From the NCBI GenBank assembly GCA_013265495.1, contig MU058065.1, positions 6,076,302-6,140,301 of the forward strand: 64,000 bases of DNA. Direction: 5' to 3'. Under the pieces are notes generated by a model. It did not search any database, was not told the DNA's origin, and was given only the letters and a program-made list of their open reading frames with translations. The position numbers and the translations under genes are program-made. The stretch is from Vicugna vicugna. Lineage: Eukaryota. Of this stretch, positions 1 to 64,000 are shown one piece after another. Numbering within the stretch: position 1 is the stretch's first letter; the number at the start of each line of letters is the position of its first letter.

Positions 1-1408
1 GAATCTGGTTAATGTGAAGATTAAAGAGTCCTTGAAGAAAACAGAAAAACGTGAGATACAGAGGCCTCAGAACAGGACGTGCGTGGTGGGAGCAGCTAAC
101 GCCAGGTCTTGTGCTGAATTCCTCCGATGCGCTGCCAATTGCAGCCTATGTGCTGGCCACATTTTAAACTCCTCCCCTGCCCACAAAGTGAAACACCGTA
201 CGGTTTGAGGATCCTGAGCTTCCAGGCTTTCCGAAGTACAAGCTAGGATAATCAACCCAATTTTGGTGACTCTTAGAGTGCACACCATGGAGTTCCTGTA
301 GGGGAGAGAAGGGCTTGACGACTTGCGGTTTGTGACCTTTGGCAATGTGGAACTCTGGTCCGGTGAAGACTAGTTTAAGCATTCCAGGATGGCCTCTTCC
401 CAGTGGGAACATCAAGTGGCAAGTATGACTGAAATACCACCCTCCAAACACAAGCTTTTGAGGCTGCTGCAAAGAAAAAAAATACATATATATATTTTAT
501 ATATATGTATTTTTTTTTACCTGTCTAGTGACTGTACAAAGTCTGTTACAAGGCCGTGATTCAAAAATGAGATGGTTGGAATAATAATGGCTTAGACTAA
601 GTTGGAAGTGACTGGAAGAACAGAACTGTGTTGACCTATTTAATGAAATCCAAGGATTCCTATTGTTTATTTTCTAAGATCCACCCTCTTCCCAACTTCA
701 CTTTTGTATTTATAGACTGAAATAATGAAGACAGTTATATCACATTTTTTTTTACCTGCAAGAAAAATGATAAAACTGCCTGTAAAGTAGCCATAGTTAC
801 TGAACATCTGCTAGGTTAAGGCTACACACACATACATATATACATTTAGGGAATATATATATTTTAAAATTCTGAGAACTTCCAGAGTTTTGTTTTTAGA
901 TAATGATCAAATAATTTGAATTTCCTGCCCATGGCACTTATGACTTACGATGTTTTATAAAACAAGAACTATTCCTCCTCTTCCAGAAGTTCTAGAAAAG
1001 GATAGCATTGACATATTTATTAGGAATGTGATAAAGATGCAACAAGAATGGTTTAGGTTTCCACGTTGTTATATTATTAGAAAACAAGAACACTGTTCCC
1101 AATATGCTGAGGCTTAAATGTTATAGAAGAAGCAGAAATTTTATGTCCTCTAGGAATTTAATAGAGGGGGAAAACCCCTCCAAATTATAAATAGATTTTT
1201 AGTGGCCAAGAGGTAGTCAGGTTGATGCTCAGCTGGTTGGCAGGGGGCGGGGGGAGTGAGGGGGCGAAGTGGAGTGGGGAGAGAGGAGATAGAATGTAAA
1301 TCTATGCCTTCTGTCTTATTAGGGAGGATTTTCACAAGACTTATTTGATATAGAACTGTCTGGGTAGTGTTCCCCCAGGCCTACAGTACCCTGGCGGCAC
1401 TTTGCTAA

Positions 1409-8378: not shown

Positions 8379-8882
8379 TAGAGAGGTACTTCTTTGGGGG
8401 TGGGTGCTGGATACTGATCAGGAACTGGAGACTAGATGACACTTCTTTTGCTCAAGTGCCTGGCCAGGGCCCAAGTGTATAATAGAAACTGTAACTGAGT
8501 CCAGACATGCCCTTGGCAGTGGCAAGGAAAGACTCTGGAAAGGGGCCAACAGCTATACAGAATTGCATGAGGGCAACACAACTTGGGTCTTCAGGAGACT
8601 GCGGAGCTCCAACTTCAGAATAAAAATTCCATGTGCCCTGTCTTTGTGGTGGGAAAACCTTCTAGAGCAGATGCTGCCACCACACCTGTCACTTACTGCT
8701 AATTATTCTCTCCTCCTCCTATTTGTCCACATACTGAACCCTCTTCTCCCACTCGACTAGATGTTGCTGGGTGTTGCATCTTTATCCTTTTCCCCAAGAA
8801 GTCCTGGGCTCTGTTCTTCCAGCTCATAAGTAGGAAGCTCATTCTAAGACTCATATTTCTTTTCTGTATCCCCTTATTACAG

Positions 8883-8941
8883 ATCGGTTGAAGACAGAGC
8901 CATTTGAAGAGAATTCCTTCATGGAACAATTTATGGTAGAG
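8883..8941 (+). CDS. NHEJ1: NHEJ1/XLF coding exon 4 (DRLKTEPFEENSFMEQFMVE)
   Basis: Pyrimidine tract then tacag|AT completes the split Asp codon; donor GAG|gtagag; 59 nt (cumulative 588 nt). Missed by the ORF track because it is short. Confidence 0.95.
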
Positions 8942-18490: not shown

Positions 18491-18937
18491 TTACTTCATT
18501 TAGTAATCTTGATAATCTCTAGGTCCATCCATGCTGCAAATGGCATTATTTTATCATGATATCACTTACATGTGGAACCTTAAAAAAATGATGCAAATGA
18601 ACTTATGTGCAAAACAGAAACAGACTCACAGACATAGAAAACAAACTTATGGTTACCAAAAGGGAAAGGGGGTGGGGGATGGATAGATTAGGAGCTTGGG
18701 ATTAGCAGATACAAACTACTATATACAGAATAGATAAACAATAAGGTCCTACTGTATAGCACAGGGAACTATATACACTAGCTTGTAATAACTTATGAAA
18801 AAGAGTATATATATATATAAAACCTTTTTCATTAGATAGATAGATAGATAGATAGGTAACTGAATCACTATGCTATACACCAGAAACTAACACAACATTG
18901 TAAAACAAGTATACTTCAATTAAAGGGGAAAAAAAAA
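18491..18937 (+). mobile_element. 5'-truncated, 5'-inverted cetartiodactyl-type L1 3' end with internal (GATA)n
   Basis: cagaaacagactcacagacatagaaaacaaacttatggttacc...tagcacagggaactata; A-tail; TSD aaaaggaaat(a)agag/gaga. Confidence 0.9.
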
Positions 18938-21900
18938 GGAAATAAGAGCTAGCTGGAGAGTTCAAAGTAGCTTAAGTAAAACCCCCTTTTTAAAATAGGA
19001 AGACATATATGTGTTTGAAAATAAAGGAGAAGCCACTGGAGGAGGAGAAACCTACACTGGTGAAGAGAAATGATAGTGTGAAAGCAAGGACCTGTGGAGT
19101 GGAGCAAAGTGAGGAGATAGGCCTTCCTCTGGCATTTGCAGGTAGCATGAAGGCACAGGACATATTTTGAAGATAGATTACTTGGTTTCTGCCTATTTCC
19201 ATCTTCTTTCCTCAGGAGATGTAGCCTTTTCATCTAGGAATTTTGCAATCCTTTCCAAGGGACATTTAATTCTCCTACTTAACAAGAGAATCAGGTGGTT
19301 CCATGACGTTTCTGTTATGTCAGAAATAGTGAAATGGACAGAAATCAAAGTATAAGCTATATTCTTTCCCTCTTCTGAGCTCCCACAACACCTTGTATCT
19401 TTCCTGTGTCACATATCACTTTGGCCTTGTACATAAGCATTTCTATACCTATCTTCCCTGTTAGATGATAAACTCCTTCAGGGTAGAACTATCTTGATCA
19501 TTTTGTTTCCTCTTCTGCAGTGTCCTGTAGTAGGAGGTATATAATAATGAGTGCTTGTAGCTCAAAGGCCTTGGCATTTGAGAAGTTCCTCACACTGGTA
19601 AATGTCAGAGCAAAAACAAAAGTATCAAATGACTTACCTTTAAGCTTTTCTGATCTATTGACTTTATAACTTTAGCCTTATACCTAAAGTGTTCTCTTAT
19701 GCTGGCCTGCACTTGTGGGTGAAATCTCTTTTGGATAGTGAGCCGCATTGAGAAGGGAGAGTGAGCCGGAGTTCTGTAGATTGGCAGCTTAGCTGTCCAA
19801 TGTTTAGGAACAAGGTGGTAGGATCCATGGGCATCCTTTGTTAGCTCCCAGAAGGGTGCTGTCAGGGAGGAAATTGCCCCAGAGCCCCAGAGTCTCTGGA
19901 AGTTGGTTTTTTTTTTTTCATTTTGTGTGGGAGACCTTTGGTCTATTTGTTTTTTATTTAGAAGTTTAAACTCTATGTGGACAGTACTTATTAAGCAGCA
20001 GTGAAAATATTAAACTCCGTGGAGTCATACTGAGAAGTTAAAACATGGTTTCTGCCCTTGAAAGATGGTCTTCTGAGAGAGATTAGATCACTGGAATTTA
20101 CACATATACAAAAAGTAGTCTAAATACATAAAATATATATTGTCTGAGAAGAGGAAGGAATAGATTTGTTTGGATGGGATCTGGGGTTCATACCAGGCTG
20201 GTTTGGGTCAAGTTATTTCTGGAAGAGGTGAATCTTGAGTTGAGCATTCAGAGGGATTTTATTTGGTGAATGGCTGTTGAAGGGAAGACACAACTAGGTA
20301 TTTTATCCAGTTACACAATCTGAGAGACTCCCCCTTAGAAAGGTGTTTTGAGGGAATCCTTCAAAAGCTCTTTGGCATCAATTACTCATATGCTTGAAGT
20401 CTGAGCAGTTCTGATGCTGTACATTGTCTTCTTAGGAACTTTTTCTCCAAAGAACTCCTTTTAACTTAGTGTGAGTGAGGCTAGGAATGAGGAGAAACTT
20501 TGAGACAAGGATGATTATACCGCTTGGGGTAAAAAAGGAGTAGTCAGTGATCATCTTAGCATTTAGTTTTCTGCAGCCCCCAGCAGCCGAGGGAAGAGCA
20601 GAGTGAAACTGCTGAAGTTAGTGGATACCTAAGGAGATGCAAGTCTCACACAGAATTTCTCTCCCAATTTGGGATCACCTCTGATACTGAGATAAGTAAG
20701 AATCAATATAAAATGGAGGAGATTAGCTGTCTACAGAAGTAACTCACCCAACTGTTTGTAAATATATTGCTTATGAGATTAGATTACAAATCTCCAAGGA
20801 CCTAACCTTAAAGAGGGAAATCATGGTATCTCAGATACCTTGTACAGACAGTTAGAGCCATAGAATTGTATAAGCTGGAAGGGACTTTATAAGTCTAAGG
20901 ATATATCAAGCTTCTGTTTTACTTATGAGGAAATTAGGGCCTACAAAGATAAATAGAACTCTTATGTAGAGAAACAGCGGTAGAATTTGGCACCAGGACC
21001 CAGAGCTCTGAACTTCCATCCCAGTATTCTTCCATCACGTCCCATTGCCTTGCCACATGTTATACAGCTACACCTGGAACTTTCTCTGGGCAGTAGGCAA
21101 GACAGGCCTGTCTGTGAGCAGTATGGAGACCTAACTTAAAAGATAGGGAAGTGGTCCATGGCTAGAGAGCTCTGCCGCATGTGCTGCCTCATTTCTTACT
21201 CCACATCCCTTTCTTCCAATTCTTGGTCTTGCACAATCTCTAGGCTCTTATAAGCAATTTGAAAAAAACTGTTGTATATTAATTCATGAGGTCTGAGGAG
21301 ACCTACTGGCAGAGGAGCAGAGTTGTATAGAATTCAGGAAAAGAAAAACCAGGGAATAACAATTGATTAATTTATCTAGCACAGTGCCAAAGTGATGCTA
21401 TAGTAGAATGAGGTGAATGGCTGGCTTTTTCTGCAGTGTATGTGAACTATCCCATAAATTCATTTGTTGTTTTTGCCTTTTTTTACCTGTGTTTAGCAAG
21501 TAGCACTCTCAGTGTTTATTTAGCTTCCCAGGAAAAATCGGCTGAAAATATATCAGTCATTGGAATGGTATAGCTCCCACCTTATAAACTAATAAATTCA
21601 CACATTAATTTCTAAATTGATATTTTATGATTTTAGTTAGCATCAATTAATCCTCTAGAATCTGATTATCCCTAAGTTAACTAATGAAAACCAGAGACTC
21701 TGAACTTTTGGTTACACCTGCAAAATATAGCCTCTCCATGAGATGCTGTTTCAGAAGCCACTCAGGGTCTCTCAGTCCGGGTGTCTTTTTCCCTCCCCCA
21801 ACATTTCTTATTGAAAGCCCTGAATTCTGTGGGCTTCTCTCACTCCCTCTTGGAGTATCAAGCTGAGTTTAAAAGCATCCCAGATCAGTCCTCAAAGAGT

Positions 21901-43267: not shown

Positions 43268-43832
43268 GTTTTTTTATTGTTGAAATATAGTTGACATACA
43301 GTATTATGTTAGTTTCAGGTGTACTATGTAACGATTGACATTTGCATACATTATGAAATGATCACCATGATAAGTCTAGTAACCATCTGTCCCCATATAA
43401 AGTTATTACAATATCACTGACTGTATTCCTTATGCTGTATATTGCATCCCCATGGCTTATTTATTTTATAGCTGGAGGTTTGTACTTCATAGTCCCCTTC
43501 ATCTATTTCTCCCCCCCCCTTACTCTTCTCCCCTCAGGCAGCCACCTGTTTGTTCTATTTACGAGTCTGTTTTCATTTTGTTTGTTTTGTTTTTTAGATT
43601 CCATGTGTAAGTAAGATCATATGGTTTTTGTCTTTGTCTGACTTATTTTATTTAGCATAATACCCTCTAGATCCATCCATATTGTCTCAAATGGCAAGAT
43701 TTTATTTTTATGGCTGACTAATATTCCATTATATATCTATACCACATCTTTATTCAGTCATCTATCGATGGACGCTTCAGTTGCTTTCGTAACTTGGCTA
43801 CTATAAATAATGCTGCAATGAACATTGGTGTT
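43268..43832 (-). mobile_element. L1 3' end (L1MA-type)
   Basis: ttgaaatatagttgacatacagtattatgttagtttcaggtgtac...taccctctagatccatccat...aataatgctgcaatgaacatt. Confidence 0.9.
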
Positions 43833-48247: not shown

Positions 48248-48384
48248 GTGGGGAGATTATAGCTCAAGTTGTAGAGCACATGCTTAGCATGCATGAGATC
48301 CCGGGTTCAATCCCCAGGATCCCTTCTAAAAATTAATAAATAAACCTAATTAATTACTTCTCCCCCCCCCAAAAATAATAAAAT
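48248..48384 (+). mobile_element. tRNA-Ala-derived SINE (camelid Vic-1-like)
   Basis: tRNA head tatagctcaagttgtagagcacatgcttagcatgcatgagatcccgggttcaatcccc (A box, AGC anticodon, B box); AT-rich tail; TSD aatgaggtag / aatgaagtag. Confidence 0.9.
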
Positions 48385-48642: not shown

Positions 48643-48679
48643 TAAACTTAAGTGTTAAGTGTAAACTTAAGTGTTAAGT
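48643..48679. repeat. Short tandem duplication (taaacttaagtgttaagt x2)
   Basis: Identical 18-mers at 48643-48660 and 48662-48679. Confidence 0.9.
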
Positions 48680-51023: not shown

Positions 51024-51756
51024 TGGTGCAGCCACTATCGAGAACAGTATGGAAGTCCTTTAAAAACTAAAAATAGAGTTACCATATGATCCAGCAATCC
51101 CACTCCTGGGCATATATCTTGAAAATATGGGAACTCTAATTCGAAAGGATAACATGCAATGTTCATAGCAGCACTATTTACAGTAGCCAAGAAAGACATG
51201 GAAGCAACCTAAGTGTCCATTGACAGATGACAGATGAAGAAGATGTGGGGTTTGTGTGTGGGTGTATGTGTGTTTGTATTACTCAGCCATAAAAAAGAAT
51301 GAAATAATGACATTTACAGCAACATGGATAGACCTAGATATTATCATACTAAGTGAAGTGAGTCAGACAGAGAAAGACAAATATCATATATCACTTATAT
51401 GTGGGATTAAAACATGATATAAATGAACTTATTTACAAAACAGAAACAGACTCACATAGAAAACAAATGTATGGTTACCACAGGGGAAAGGATGAGGGGG
51501 ATAAATAAGGAGCTTGGAATTAACAGATACACATTACTATATATAAAACAGATAAACAGCAAGGTCCTACTGTATAGCACAGGGAACTATATTCAATATC
51601 TTGTAATAACCCATAATGGAAAACAATCTGAATATATATATATATATGTATGTATAAAACTGAATCAATTTGCTTTATACCAGAAACTAACACAACACTG
51701 TAAATCAGCTATATGTTAAAGAAAAAAAAAAGATTTAGGAAAAACTGAAAAAAAAA
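51024..51756 (+). mobile_element. Cetartiodactyl-type L1 3' end
   Basis: tggtgcagccacta...aatagagttaccatatgatccagcaatcccactcctgggcatata...gcacagggaactatattcaatatcttg; A-tail. Confidence 0.93.
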
Positions 51757-54560: not shown

Positions 54561-54650
54561 TTTTTTTTTTAATGGAGGTACTGGGGATTGAACTCAGCAT
54601 CTTGTGCATGTTAAGCACACACTCTCCCACTAAGCTGTACCCTCCCCCTG
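54561..54650 (-). mobile_element. tRNA-Ala-derived SINE (camelid Vic-1-like, short form)
   Basis: Poly-T followed by an antisense tRNA head; 14-nt TSD tactctgaactctt at 54548-54561 and 54654-54667. Confidence 0.9.
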
Positions 54651-55073: not shown

Positions 55074-56385
55074 CAGCAGGAATTTTTTACCCTGGGGTGT
55101 ATGGATCCTTTGAGAATTCATGTTTAGAATTCAGGGTCTCACAAACTGGGTTGGGGGAAAATTGCATCTTTATTTTGTTAACCTATAACTGAAGTTTAGC
55201 ATTTCCTTCTGTTACAAATGTAAGCAAGATCAGAATAGCTATCATCCAAAAGTCTACAAATAATAAATGATAGGGAGAGTGCGGAACAAAGGGAACCCTC
55301 TTAGATTGTTGGCAGGAGTGTAAATTGGTGCAACCACTGTGGAAAACAGGAGGTTCCCTAAAAAGCTAAAAATAGAGTTACCATATGATCCAGCAATTCC
55401 ACTCCTGGGCATATATCCTGAAAATATGAAAACTCTACTTTGAAAAGATACATGCACCCCAATGATCATAGCAGCATTATTTACAGTTGCCAACACATGG
55501 AAACAACCCAGGTGCCCATCAACATACAATTGGCTTAAGAAGATTTGGTTATATGTATACACAATGGAATATTACTCAACCATAAAAAGAATGAAATAAT
55601 TGCTATTTGCAGCAACATGGATGCACCTAGAGAATATCATACTAAATGAAGTAAGTCAGAGAAAGACAAATATTATATGGTATCACTTATATGTGGAATC
55701 TAAAAAATAATACAAATGAATCTATATACAAAACAGAAACAGACTCACAGACATGGAAAACAAACTTATGGTTACAAAAGGGGAAAGGGAGGGTGGGGAA
55801 GGATAAATTAGGAGTATGAGATTAATAGATACAATCTACTATACATAAAATAGATAAGCAACAAGGATTTAGTATTTAGCACAGGGAACTATATTCAATA
55901 TCTTATAATAACCTGTAATAGAAAGTAATCTGAAAAATATATGTTTAATGGTAACTTTTCTGTACACCTGAAACTAACACAATATTGTAAATCAACTACA
56001 TTTCAATAAAAAGTAATAAATATAAGTAAAAACTACCATGTCAGCAGTATCTGTGACTTATTCGTCAATAGAAATCACAGCTATTTTCATATCATTTTAT
56101 AGTTGCTGCAAGTATCATGAAATATAGTTCATGCTCACCACTACTTGAAATTATCGTGGTTATTTGACCCACTACTAGATCTGGTAATGTAATGTATTAA
56201 TAAAGAAGTACATGTATTGTATTGATGTATTATTCTGTTATACATTTAAAAAATATTTGAATACAGCATTTTAATTTGTTTCCTTTGTAATCATATATTT
56301 TATTGTATGCATTTAAAAAAGGTCCCAGCCTTCACCAGACTGCAGAGGAGTCCATGGCACACACAAAAAGCTAAGAATCCATGCT
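55074..56385. mobile_element. hAT-Charlie element (Charlie4a-like) split by an L1
   Basis: cctggggtgtatggatcc...taactgaagtttagcatttccttc before the L1; atagaaatcacag...cttcaccagactgc...gtccatggcac...aagaatcc after it. Confidence 0.65.
55228..56017 (+). mobile_element. Cetartiodactyl-type L1 3' end (ORF2 C-terminus + 3'UTR)
   Basis: aagggaaccctc...gtaaattggtgcaaccactgtggaaaac...aataaaaag; TSD aaatgtaagcaa / aaatataagtaa. Confidence 0.93.
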
Positions 56386-59561: not shown

Positions 59562-60058
59562 TTTTTTCCCATCTTGTGATACAGCCACTTTATTTTTTAA
59601 AATATTTTTATTGAGTTATAGTCATTTTACAATATTGTGTCAAATTCCAGTGTAGAGCACAATTTTTCAGTTATACATGAACATACATATATTCATTGTC
59701 ACATTTTTTTTCACTGTGAGCTACCACAAGATCTTGTCTATATTTCCCTGTGCTATACAGTATAATCTTGTTTATCTGTTTTGAAATCCCAGTCTGTCCC
59801 TTCCCACTCCCTGCCCCCTTGGCAACCACAAGTTTGTATTCTATGTCTATGAGTCTGTTTCTGTTTTGTATTTATGTTTTTGTTTTGTTTTGTTAGATTC
59901 CACATATGAGCGATCTTATATGGTATTTTTCTTTCTCTTTCTGGCTTACTTCACTTAGAATGACATTCTCCAGGAACATCCATGTTGCTGCAAATGGCGT
60001 TATGTTGTCGGTTTTTATGGCTGAATAGTATTCCATTGTATAAATATACCACATCTAA
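59562..60058 (-). mobile_element. Relatively young L1 3' end (camelid-type)
   Basis: ttattgagttatagtcattttacaat...ccctgtgctatacagt...catccatgttgctgcaaatggc; perfect TSD TGATGGGCT (59553-59561 / 60059-60067). Confidence 0.9.
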
Positions 60059-61850: not shown

Positions 61851-62415
61851 CCCTTACCGTGAATGTGTGTTATGGGGAGATGGTGCATCATCACCCTACA
61901 GAGTAAGATTTCGAGGGGAAGAGAGGACACTGTGTCACCCTACAAGGAGCAGGCAGCAGGCGGGGTAGGAGTGGGGAGCCCATGAGATCACAGTCTCCAT
62001 GGGCTGTGTTCCCAGCTGTCAAGCGTGTAATGGGGAGTGAAAGAAAATCCCTTTGGTGGTAGAGATCCTACAGATAATACTGCCGGGTCCTCTAAATCAC
62101 CTCTGTGTCCTATAGACCCAGCTGACTGTCCTCTCTTCTCCACTAAAACAGGGGGCAAATGAAATGTGCAGTCCTGCATAGTGCTCATGCACAGGGCAGG
62201 GATCATGAGCTTTCAGAGCCAGATGCCTGCTCTGTAGCTGCGATTTTCTTTTTGTTACTAAACCTGATGCTTTTTTCTTTTTGGTTTTCACCACCTGGTT
62301 TCATTTCCATTTGAAGAAAGGATGGTGAGGTGGCTGACTTTGAGAAACAGGCTTAACTATCCTCCAGACCAGTTGTCCCCTAATAGGCTGGTTGGAGCCC
62401 CCTCCCTGAGCCAGA

Positions 62416-63778
62416 GCTGACAGGAGCTGCTTGTTCTTCTTGGGAAAGGGGTGGGAGTAGAGAAAGAAGGAATGAGAGTTGCTACTGCACTTTCTGAGGG
62501 GCTCTGAGGATTCCTCCCCCCAAGGAAACCACTTTCGTTCCCCCAGCCCCTTTGCTGCTTGTTAGTTAGAAAGCCATGGTTTGTGCTGGGGCTGGGTGGA
62601 GCTTCGGGGACAGTTTGGGCTCTGGCCCTCCAAAGGGGAGGGGTTGGTTATGGAGCAAGCAAAGGGTCACAGCTTAGGCTGTACCATTTGCTTGTCACCT
62701 TGAGAAGTTCCACCTTGTCTAGCAAAACCTCCTTTCAGAAGCAGCCACCACAAAGGGCTCTTATGAGTGCAGCGGCCCCTGCCCCCACCTTCACTTCCAC
62801 TCCCTTTACCATTATTTTTCTTTTGGGGCAGAGCTGAGGGGCCTTCCTGCTATGACTTTGAGGGGCTGTACTTGTTTTAAAAGGAGATTTAGCGTCTGGA
62901 GCCTCCCCATACCAGAGATTCATTATTCTGATTTTCTAGTTAGAGGACACTCAAGGGGTTAAGTAAAGCGTTCCTTCTCTGGGGCAGGGGGTGTTTTGTC
63001 TTTTCCCCTCTATCAGTCTCTTGAGCTATTTGAAGATTTAAGAAAGAAAGTGAGAGAGTTACATTCTAGTACCACTAGGTCTCAGAGCAGGAATCAGCCT
63101 CCTCCTGGGGAGTGAGAGGTGGGGGATGGGAGGGAGGACTAGATGTCTCACTGGGTGATTTTAAGATGCAGTATAGTGTAGTGGTTGAAGTGTATGTTCT
63201 GAAGTTCAGCTTCCTGGGCCTTCTACTTCCCCATTTTTTAAAAAGATATTAAAAAAACTATTCAGTTTCATTAATTAACATACATTAATTAAGTTCATAA
63301 ATTGTCTAAATAAAGCCTTTCACAGTGAAATGTATGATCCTAGATCAAAATACAGATTACAAAAATTCAGAAACGTTCTTGTTCTTCTGATATAAGAATC
63401 TGAGAATTATGATTTCTATGGTTTACAAAATAGAGGCTAATTATTTGGTAAACATGGATATATATTAATTTTATGACCTTTTAGAGAAGGGTTACCTATA
63501 CTTTTCTTGATTATCTGTGAAGATGTCTTTATTTCAACCATGTCAACTAATATTAATGAATTCTATTGCTTTTATGAAAATACATAGGATTTTAATGAAC
63601 AGCCCCAGCACAAACCATGGCTTTCTAACTAACAGGCAGCACAGGGGCTGAGGGGTCAAAAGTGGTTTCCTGGGTGGCAGGAATCCCCAGAGCCCCTCAG
63701 AAAGTGCCATAGCAGCTCTCATTCCTTCTTTCTCTACTCCCACCCCTTCTCCAAGAAAAACAAGCAGCTCCTGTCAGC
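62416..63778. repeat. Inverted repeat: 179-bp arms 62416-62594 and 63600-63778, 1005-bp spacer
   Basis: Arm 2 reverse-complement aligns to arm 1 without gaps, with about 16 mismatches by manual count (~91%). Confidence 0.97.
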
Positions 63779-64000
63779 AGTCTTTTTATCCTTAAAAAGC
63801 AGTGACACAACCATGTAAAATTTAGAGTGGTCCTCTTTCTTACCTTAATGCAAAGAATGATTCCCTGAACACTTAGCTAGTGGTTGTCAGTAGCTAATAT
63901 CATACTTTTTAGCTGTGGCCTTGGTCAAGTTTCATAACCTCTCTGAGCCCTTGTTTTCTCATATGTTAAATGAGAATGATTTTAGTGCCTCCCTGACAGG
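63165..64000 (+). mobile_element. MIR pieces at ~63165-63230 (5' part) and ~63900-64000 (core)
   Basis: gcagtatagtgtagtggttgaag...cctggg and tagctgtggccttggtcaagtt...aacctctctgagcc. Confidence 0.65.

What the first reader, a model, noticed from the sequence alone, without database searches (positions are those of the whole stretch)
62416..63778. 179-bp inverted duplication of non-repeat intronic DNA (long stem, 1-kb loop)
Seen: two 179-bp arms in opposite orientation, ungapped, ~91% identical, with sharp ends and 1005 nt apart. The arms do not resemble any SINE, LINE or MITE I recognise, and I see no TSD. Inference: a local fold-back or template-switch duplication. In the NHEJ1 pre-mRNA it could fold into a ~180-bp dsRNA stem (potential ADAR substrate or splicing loop-out). 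In DNA it could mediate inversion of the spacer. The arm carries TEAD-like (GGAATG) and RUNX-like (AACCAC) motifs. Copy-number gains of enhancers in this intron are known to alter IHH output, so a duplicated enhancer fragment is plausible.
Basis: partly seen in the sequence, partly recalled or inferred. Interest (0 to 1): 0.72.

Follow-up and report, generated by a model that had tools for sequence, protein, structure and literature searches.

The report
Backward copy scar in NHEJ1 intron
Two mirror-image 179-base copies sit 1 kb apart in a long intron of a llama-like camelid's NHEJ1 gene; the right one is likely a backwards copy of the older left one, likely made by a single DNA-copying or repair slip, and although it is predicted to fold the unspliced RNA into a long hairpin, no sign of a useful role was found.

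Summary
The arms are 62416-62594 and 63600-63778: 179 nt, 16 mismatches, 1005 nt apart, two copies in the window, in camelid NHEJ1 intron 5.

Direction is resolved. Spurious-ORF proteins from unnamed, more distant assemblies run straight through left flank, left arm and spacer; none of the 9 that cover the arm continues into the right-hand flanks. The right arm abuts the window's most AT-rich stretch, inside about 670 nt that appears to split an old MIR-like SINE. So the left arm is the original and the right arm is a one-off inverted copy, roughly 12-58 million years old. The likely cause is a template switch or fold-back during repair. No transposon hallmarks were found.

Function is unsupported. 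Sense-strand mismatches show no bias to keep pairing (4 G-U, 6 A-C). The longest identical tract is 35 bp, well below typical recombination thresholds. Most of the arm is poorly conserved; the better-conserved block (about 62565-62780) lies mainly in the spacer and was barely copied. Incidental ADAR editing is plausible but untested, because no reads or genome were available. This is an ordinary member of a known kind.

The parts
62416..62594 (+). Left arm: the original, single-locus sequence and inferred donor
   Evidence: Homologous spurious ORFs are collinear across its left junction (P0121, P0126) and its right junction (P0122-P0126, P0128-P0131). No GC step at either end.
63600..63778 (-). 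Right arm: inverted copy of the left arm, inferred to be the derived copy
   Evidence: 91% identical. 0 of 9 arm-covering homologues extend into its flanks. The GC step of 0.34 at 63599/63600 is reached at 0.09% of window positions.
62595..63599 (.). 1005-nt spacer (loop of the predicted RNA stem), in ancestral orientation at least to about 62960
   Evidence: Homologues are collinear with left arm plus spacer to 62960.
62565..62780 (.). Better-conserved non-coding block, a candidate regulatory element; only its first 30 nt or so were copied into the right arm
   Evidence: Codon-level identity is about 80-100% here against about 52-63% with many indels at 62416-62564 in P0122/24/25/31. Arm versus spacer Fisher p 0.002-0.03. 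Indirect evidence from proteins.
62386..62398 (+). 13-bp direct repeat, copy 1 (12 of 13 identical to copy 2); ancestral, so not a target-site duplication of this event
   Evidence: Compatible with P0121 and P0126, with one change each.
62590..62602 (+). 13-bp direct repeat, copy 2, overlapping the last 5 nt of the left arm; 204 nt from copy 1
   Evidence: Compatible with P0122, P0123, P0125 and P0126. Such a pair was found around 1 of 1500 random 179-nt segments.
63166..63230 (+). MIR-like SINE 5' part (head) without its core
   Evidence: 53 of 12036 control windows score as high against 8 other heads in the window. Head plus core aligns end to end to the copy at 34125-33930(-), and 1 of 1000 random heads did as well. 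Profile hit alone is weak (E 0.13-5.4). Family name recalled.
63231..63599 (.). Segment A: AT-rich sequence (24.4% GC) of unknown origin, the lowest-GC 369 nt in the window
   Evidence: No second copy in the window, no Pfam match in 12 short frames, no TIR or TSD.
63779..63899 (.). Segment B: 121 nt, 35.5% GC, origin unknown; may be the continuation of A, with a CAG repeated across the inserted arm
   Evidence: A 3-mer recurs in this way by chance in 5.7% of trials; a GC difference this large occurs between 13.5% of adjacent blocks.
63900..64000 (+). MIR-like SINE core without its head
   Evidence: E 4.5e-10 with a profile built from other copies in the window. Family name recalled.
8873..8941 (+). 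NHEJ1 exon 5, the last exon in the window (context: intron 5 starts here)
   Evidence: tblastn with P0002.

Best explanation
The left arm is collinear with its flanks in homologous DNA from other assemblies, and the right arm is likely a one-off backwards copy of it, likely made in a camelid ancestor when a broken or stalled DNA strand switched template 1 kb upstream and then rejoined, and the two copies have likely drifted neutrally since. Proposed steps: synthesis or a break end at about 63599 switches to the same region at 62594, copies 179 nt in reverse to 62416, and returns at about 63779 (four-point type 3-2-1-4). The landing site was AT-rich DNA (segments A and B) that itself interrupts an old MIR-like SINE. 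SHOWN: the two arms; donor continuity in homologues; composition steps only at the right arm; private changes in both arms; no pairing bias. INFERRED: the template-switch route, an age of about 12-58 Myr, that A and B were one older piece, and neutrality. PREDICTED: the intron RNA folds the arms into a stem that ADAR may edit incidentally, without consequence.
For: (1) P0126 aligns over 62159-62615, through both left junctions. P0121 aligns from 62532 to 61991. P0122/24/25/28-31 run from the arm into the spacer. On the right locus all 9 arm-covering proteins stop within 63600-63777. (2) P0121 and P0126 share a state at 62440 that both arms lack, so the duplication postdates the split from them. 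(3) The GC step at the right inner junction is in the top 0.09% of positions and the outer one in the top 6%; the left junctions are unremarkable at 76% and 95%. (4) A split MIR-like element surrounds the right arm. (5) A CAG recurs across the inserted arm, as expected for microhomology (weak, 5.7% by chance). (6) Mismatches are unclustered (p 0.16-0.40), with 4 G-U, 6 A-C and 6 other on the sense strand (p 0.83). (7) Of 16 differences I could polarise 7: 5 changed on the right, 2 on the left (p 0.45). (8) Types 1-4-3-2 and 3-2-1-4 are the majority of short-range switches in great apes and leave single inverted repeats (PMC7954356, passages).
Against: The outgroup evidence is translated spurious ORFs of unnamed organisms in 5 clusters that cover the arm, not DNA alignments. 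None covers the right-hand locus, so the empty site was never seen. The short-range switches in PMC7954356 reach tens to hundreds of nucleotides, shorter than 1 kb. The 13-bp direct repeat around the donor (1 of 1500 controls) is not explained by a plain switch. A and B differ in GC (Fisher p 0.019) and could have arrived with the arm. The arm is well conserved against P0121 (2 changed residues and one frameshift over residues 2-45), which does not fit 'poorly conserved' for that lineage. The 5:2 lean, though not significant, is what constraint on the left arm would give.
Confidence: 0.62

Rival explanations
1. One multi-template repair patch. A break inside the MIR-like SINE was filled in a single event by distant AT-rich DNA (A), the inverted local 179 nt, and a third piece (B), as in 'local-distant' clusters or class 2 templated insertions. 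It is also neutral.
For: A is the lowest-GC 369 nt of the window and has no local source. The whole 669 nt shows no TIR, no TSD of convincing length and no poly-A signature. A and B differ in GC. The structure type is described in PMC7025897 (passages) and PMC5110952.
Against: The CAG recurrence suggests A and B were once adjacent (weak). A GC gap this large occurs in 13.5% of adjacent blocks. Old insertions into MIRs are common (own knowledge). No donor for A could be sought without a genome.
Confidence: 0.2
2. Captured loop or circle. The ancestral 13-bp direct repeats 204 nt apart looped out or excised the donor as a microDNA-sized piece, which was then ligated backwards into a break 1 kb away.
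For: The repeat pair is ancestral and rare (1 of 1500 random segments, 0 of 277 GC-rich ones). One end of the copy lies inside repeat copy 2 and the other 17 nt from copy 1. Slippage at short direct repeats and 100-400-bp microDNA from unique DNA are described in PMC9527254 (passages).
Against: The repeat was found post hoc among several junction scans, so the real odds are nearer 1 in 100. The copy is not circularly permuted and lacks the 25 nt that would hold the circle junction. A single case cannot separate this from a template switch helped by the same repeat.
Confidence: 0.08
3. Selected function. Whatever its origin, the pair is now kept as an edited RNA stem or as an extra IHH-enhancer fragment.
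For: The predicted sense-strand duplex is -330 kcal/mol with helices of 42 and 39 bp, above the medians for edited non-repetitive human dsRNA (144 bp, 30 contiguous, -184.8; PMC11838218 Table 1). The intron holds IHH enhancers in human, mouse, dog and chicken (PMC10425348, passages). The arm touches a conserved block, and AACCAC is compatible with all five clusters.
Against: No G-U bias and 12 helix-breaking mismatches. No clustering of mismatches. The nearest annotated exon in the window is 53 kb away. About 150 of 179 nt lie outside the conserved block, and GGAATG is not kept in the P0122 and P0124 clusters. Conserved human dsRNAs are typically short and weak rather than long and stable. The i8 variant lies 18.1 kb into the human intron, far from 53.5 kb; positions of the other enhancers were not seen.
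Confidence: 0.06
4. The arms are two copies, or the long terminal inverted repeats, of an unrecognised transposable element.
For: No genome-wide count was possible. A 13-bp direct repeat brackets the left arm like a TSD.
Against: All 15 homologous proteins (P0121-P0135) map collinearly to the single left locus, and none joins the arm to foreign flanks. The spacer is ancestral host DNA. The 13-mers are ancestral. No tRNA-like head in the arms, no tail, and no TSD outside the pair.
Confidence: 0.03

Closest known systems
Template-switch events of four-point type 3-2-1-4 (PMC7954356; passages)
   Same: A reverse-complement copy of upstream sequence is inserted downstream and leaves one inverted repeat; the donor stays in place.
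   Different: Here the fragment is 179 nt and the jump 1005 nt, whereas that study searches tens to hundreds of nucleotides around a mutation cluster. The ancestral empty site was not seen here.
Local 2-jumps and local-distant clusters (PMC7025897; passages); class 2 templated sequence insertions (PMC5110952; first quarter of text and passages)
   Same: Copy-and-paste patch without TSD or poly-A; size within the 73-414 bp range of experimental insertions; possibly a distant piece (A) beside a local one.
   Different: Those are somatic or recent human events, and TSIP donors are distant. Here the donor is 1 kb away, the event is old, and no donor for A is known.
L1-mediated local inverted duplications (bioRxiv 10.1101/2024.12.14.628481; passages)
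   Same: An inverted duplication of nearby genomic DNA, primed by a folded-back 3' end with very short homology.
   Different: No adjacent poly-A or L1 insertion was found at the junctions, and that paper links duplications to small hairpins, not a 1-kb loop.
Non-repetitive intramolecular dsRNAs of the human dsRNAscan catalogue (PMC11838218; passages and Table 1)
   Same: Intronic, non-repeat arms; length, contiguous pairing and energy resemble the edited class.
   Different: Editing is not shown here. Only 4,597 of 497,429 predicted non-repetitive human dsRNAs were edited, and the conserved ones are short.
IHH enhancer cluster in the NHEJ1 intron, i8/i9 (PMC10425348; passages)
   Same: Same intron; a conserved block lies next to the donor.
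   Different: i8 is about 3.1 kb long and 18 kb into the human intron. This copy is 179 bp at 53.5 kb and takes only about 30 nt of the neighbouring conserved block.

Membership tests
Template-switch / fold-back inverted duplication | Insert is the reverse complement of nearby sequence that remains in place | tested here: met
Template-switch / fold-back inverted duplication | Donor copy is the ancestral one | tested here: met
   Homologous ORFs are collinear across both left junctions; 0 of 9 extend into the right flanks. Indirect, protein-level.
Template-switch / fold-back inverted duplication | Microhomology at the switch points | tested here: inconclusive
   CAG recurs across the insert; 5.7% by chance
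Template-switch / fold-back inverted duplication | Ancestral empty site seen in an outgroup | not testable with these tools
   No genome, no runs listed, no protein candidate across the right junction
Transposable element (MITE, SINE, LINE fragment or TIR pair) | Many genomic copies with unrelated flanks | tested here: inconclusive
   Two copies in 64 kb; all 15 homologous proteins map to one locus; no genome-wide count possible
Transposable element (MITE, SINE, LINE fragment or TIR pair) | Target-site duplication created by the insertion | tested here: not met
   None at the right arm or outside the pair; the 13-mer at the left arm is ancestral
Transposable element (MITE, SINE, LINE fragment or TIR pair) | Element-specific interior or ends (tRNA head, A tail, transposase, non-host interior) | tested here: not met
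   No Rfam hit in the arms; no Pfam hit; the spacer is collinear host DNA in homologues
Class 1 TSIP / L1-mediated insertion | TSD of 5 bp or more, poly-A tail downstream of a signal, endonuclease-type target | tested here: not met
   No signal-plus-tail at either end of the arm or of the 669 nt. One 8-mer recurs at 63238 and 63792 but does not bracket either unit.
Class 2 TSIP / local-distant patch | Inserted piece maps to a distant genomic donor | not testable with these tools
   The arm donor is local. A has no source in the window; no genome.
ADAR-edited intronic dsRNA | Both arms in one transcript, able to form a long duplex | tested here: met
   Both lie in NHEJ1 intron 5; predicted stem. 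Prediction only.
ADAR-edited intronic dsRNA | A-to-G changes in RNA reads on both arms | not testable with these tools
   No run listed
Selected RNA structure | Bias to pairing-preserving or compensatory change | tested here: not met
   4 G-U versus 6 A-C on the sense strand, p 0.83; small sample
NAHR inversion substrate | Uninterrupted identity of roughly 134-232 bp or more | tested here: not met
   Longest tract 35 bp; thresholds from PMC2583991, which also reports events on under 50 bp between close repeats
IHH enhancer | Sequence conserved across mammals | tested here: inconclusive
   Last 30 nt or so conserved; the rest poorly conserved in distant homologues but well conserved in P0121
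IHH enhancer | Open chromatin, histone marks or reporter activity | not testable with these tools
   No such data in the tools

The most novel reading that the evidence does not exclude
The right arm is a germline fossil of a microDNA-sized piece. Ancestral 13-bp direct repeats 204 bp apart defined the donor, which was looped out and captured backwards 1 kb away. This placed inverted repeats on both sides of a conserved block in the IHH enhancer intron. If direct-repeat-bounded donors of about 200 bp prove common among such duplications, small excised DNAs would be a real source of inherited genome change.
Probability: 0.08. Interest if true: 0.55.

Novelty: new member of a known kind. Interest (0 to 1): 0.17.

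Why it matters
As read here it matters little. It is one more lineage-specific inverted-duplication scar, and it is useful as a presence/absence marker for camelids and as a clean, polarised example of a 1-kb template switch. It would matter more in two cases. First, if donors of such copies are generally bracketed by direct repeats about 200 bp apart, which would test whether microDNA-type fragments re-enter the germline. Second, if the copy or a spacer flip altered the neighbouring conserved block's effect on IHH, a gene whose enhancers in this intron are dosage-sensitive in human and mouse (PMC10425348, passages). Neither is shown.

Tried and rejected
No whole genome is held, so there is no genome-wide copy count and no donor search for segment A.

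The one search for sequencing runs, limited to PacBio libraries, listed none. That is no evidence either way; it leaves editing, inversion polymorphism and the state in Camelus untested.

Look-ups of earlier notes by sequence gave 0 windows for the arm but also 0 for a control L1 end that must be multicopy, so they say nothing on copy number. The hit for the insert (3 of 131 words, a bacterial locus) was dismissed as chance. Look-ups by place and by words were empty.

The metagenome scan gave 1 locus of 509 candidate stretches (L001). Its best DNA match to the window is 31 nt at E 0.099, rejected as chance. Plasmid and phage blastn gave no match. Rfam gave nothing in the finding. Pfam gave nothing in 2 arm frames or 12 short frames over A and B (low power). 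The protein search with the frame crossing the right inner junction found no candidate (weak).

'Left arm is the insert, with a 13-bp TSD' was considered after and rejected, because both 13-mers and both junctions are present in more distant homologues. 'Inversion of the spacer with duplicated ends' was rejected because flank, arm and spacer to 62960 are collinear in homologues. Gene conversion: no clustering signal. The MIR-head profile alone was not significant (E 5.4 in the window); only the joined test supports the split. One search folded the antisense strand; one search is the relevant one.

The mouse enhancer-cluster paper by Will et al. is not held, so positions of enhancers other than i8/i9 were not seen. 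No supplements were read. Searches that listed no paper on this camelid structure: 11 of 11 listed; 2 of 2; 15 of 6,320; titles and abstract starts only.

Full report
Observation. The pair is real and at the stated coordinates: 62416-62594 and 63600-63778, 179 nt, 16 mismatches, no gap, 1005 nt apart. There are 10 transitions and 6 transversions, K2P 0.096. No third copy was found in the 64 kb. The window holds NHEJ1 exons on the + strand up to exon 5 at about 8873-8941 and none after, so the pair lies about 53.5 kb into intron 5. The exon-3 peptide is identical to an alpaca protein and differs by one residue from wild camel, so the genome is that of a llama-like camelid. No whole genome is held.

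Anatomy. From left to right: GC-rich flank; 13-bp repeat copy 1 (62386-62398); left arm, whose last 5 nt overlap repeat copy 2 (62590-62602); GC-rich spacer; a SINE-like head (63166-63230); segment A (63231-63599, 24.4% GC, the lowest 369-nt value in the window apart from windows overlapping it); right arm; segment B (63779-63899, 35.5% GC); and a SINE-like core (63900-64000). The core matches a profile built from other copies in the window at E 4.5e-10. The head alone is weak against such a profile (E 0.13-5.4). It ranks above all but 53 of 12036 control windows, and head plus core aligns end to end to the copy at 34125-33930, a score reached by 1 of 1000 random heads. I call this element MIR from recall; MIRs are the main camelid SINE in PMC8605555 (passages). 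So about 670 nt, including the right arm, probably interrupt one old SINE.

Which arm is the copy. Composition gave the first hint. The GC step at the right inner junction (0.34) is matched at 0.09% of positions and the outer one at 6%, while the left junctions show no step (windows overlap, so these are ranks, not p-values). Against this, the 13-bp repeat around the left arm looked like a target duplication; it occurred around only 1 of 1500 random segments. Homologues settled it. A stop-free frame across the left arm found 1 protein among 1.84 billion, P0121, an unnamed spurious ORF. It follows the window from 62532 through the arm's left end to 61991, with 140 of 173 codons identical and several indels, about 9% at DNA level by simulation. 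A second frame found 6 proteins of 24 candidates and 8 more cluster members. P0126 runs from 62159 through both repeats and the whole arm to 62615. P0122, P0124, P0125 and their cluster members run from the arm into the spacer, and P0127's cluster covers 62763-62960. All 9 proteins with real arm coverage (5 clusters) stop within 63600-63777 when aligned to the right locus, and none joins the arm to foreign DNA. P0122, P0124 and P0125 are far more diverged in the arm (about 62-67% of codons) than the arms are from each other, so they split before the duplication. Flank, arm and spacer are therefore ancestral and in their original order, the 13-mers are ancestral, and the right arm is the copy. 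The organisms are unnamed; that they are non-camelid mammals is my inference from divergence.

Age. Both arms share a state at 62440 that P0121 and P0126 lack, so the event is on the lineage leading to this genome. One rate is 1.4e-9 per site per year (7e-9 per generation, 5 years; PMC7331169, passages, where a second passage gives the rate per year instead). With it, K 0.096 gives 34 Myr (19-58). A recalled general mammalian rate of 2.2e-9 gives 22 Myr (12-37). The camel-llama split is about 16.3 Ma (PMC12337305, passages), so Old World camels probably carry the copy too; this was not tested.

Mechanism. The layout equals a four-point template switch of type 3-2-1-4: leave at 63599, copy 62594 back to 62416 in reverse, return at about 63779. 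This type and its mirror are the majority among short-range switches in great apes and leave one inverted repeat (PMC7954356, passages). A fold-back of a resected break end gives the same product. The first three bases of the insert, CAG, recur at its end, as if A and B had been adjacent with 3 nt of microhomology (5.7% by chance, so weak). The main rival is one composite patch in which A, the arm and B arrived together, as in local-distant clusters (PMC7025897, passages) or class 2 templated insertions (PMC5110952). A has no source in the window, no TIR, no TSD and no Pfam match, and its origin stays open. L1-mediated inverted duplication (bioRxiv 10.1101/2024.12.14.628481, passages) lacks its hallmark here, an adjacent poly-A insertion. 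The 13-mers 204 nt apart remain unexplained. They may have looped out the donor, as proposed for microDNA (PMC9527254, passages), but the copy is not permuted and the repeat was found post hoc.

Function. The pre-mRNA strand is predicted to pair the arms along their length, with a duplex of -330 kcal/mol and helices of 42, 39, 20 and 20 bp. That exceeds the medians for edited non-repetitive human dsRNAs (144 bp, 30 contiguous, -184.8; PMC11838218 Table 1), so incidental editing is plausible. It is untested, because no run was listed. Signs of selection are absent. On the sense strand the 10 transitions give 4 G-U and 6 A-C pairs (p 0.83), the antisense duplex is slightly more stable (-339.5), and the mismatches are not clustered. 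Of 16 differences, 7 could be polarised: 5 changed on the right and 2 on the left (p 0.45). The other 9 were unresolved, one of them with conflicting outgroups. For inversion, the longest identical tract is 35 bp, while a fall from 232 to 134 bp already cuts recombination 20-fold; events on under 50 bp are reported for close repeats (PMC2583991, passages), so flips would be rare but are not excluded. For the enhancer idea, in the distant homologues 62416-62564 keeps about 52-63% of codons with many indels, whereas 62565-62780 keeps about 80-100% (arm versus spacer Fisher p 0.002-0.03). The copy took only about 30 nt of that block. The query favoured hits in the spacer, and the arm is well kept in P0121, so this is indicative only. 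GGAATG is not kept in two of the five clusters, and AACCAC is compatible with all five. Both motifs occur together in 3 of 346 control segments, but they were picked after the fact. The human i8 variant lies 18.1 kb into the intron (PMC10425348, passages), far from here; the positions of the other enhancers were not available.

Comparison and verdict. It works like a template-switch or repair-patch inverted duplication and meets the testable features of that kind. It fails the tested features of a transposon and of a class 1 L1-mediated insertion, and it is not an efficient recombination substrate. Earlier, unchecked notes list several similar non-repeat inverted duplications in the same genome; these are leads only but suggest the kind is not rare. 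Three paper searches listed nothing on this camelid structure (listings only). Verdict: real, a new member of a known kind, probably neutral; interest 0.17.

Noticed in passing
window 62565-62780: A block better conserved than its left neighbour in distant homologues (about 80-100% of codons). It is a candidate conserved non-coding element in the IHH enhancer intron and now lies mostly between the two inverted arms.
   Followed up: partly
window 63231-63599: The most AT-rich 369 nt of the window (24.4% GC), with no local source, TIR, TSD or Pfam match; origin unknown.
   Followed up: partly
window 48253-48324 (+) and 54573-54644 (-): Two tRNA-like Rfam hits (35.4 and 40.3 bits) that also form a 73% inverted pair; probably heads of tRNA-derived SINEs.
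   Followed up: no
window 18583-18945, 51056-51745, 55355-56032 (+); 43274-43831, 59605-60056 (-): Copies of one L1-like 3' end (family recalled) in both orientations, 71-90% alike and 3.6-12 kb apart; further possible pre-mRNA duplexes in the same intron.
   Followed up: no
P0092: An unnamed 594-aa protein joins an NHEJ1 sequence to Hedgehog domains (PF01085, PF01079), suggesting an NHEJ1-IHH read-through transcript or a chimeric contig. Several other hits join an SLC23A3-type domain (PF00860) to NHEJ1.
   Followed up: no
window 345-425: An upstream coding stretch matching the N-terminus of alpaca NHEJ1 isoform X5 (26 of 27 residues), an alternative first coding exon.
   Followed up: no
window 63873-63897: A perfect 7-bp inverted repeat with an 11-nt loop in segment B, just before the SINE-like core (seen); may be chance.
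   Followed up: no
window 48643-48679: An exact 19-bp tandem duplication, the only Tandem Repeats Finder hit in the window.
   Followed up: no
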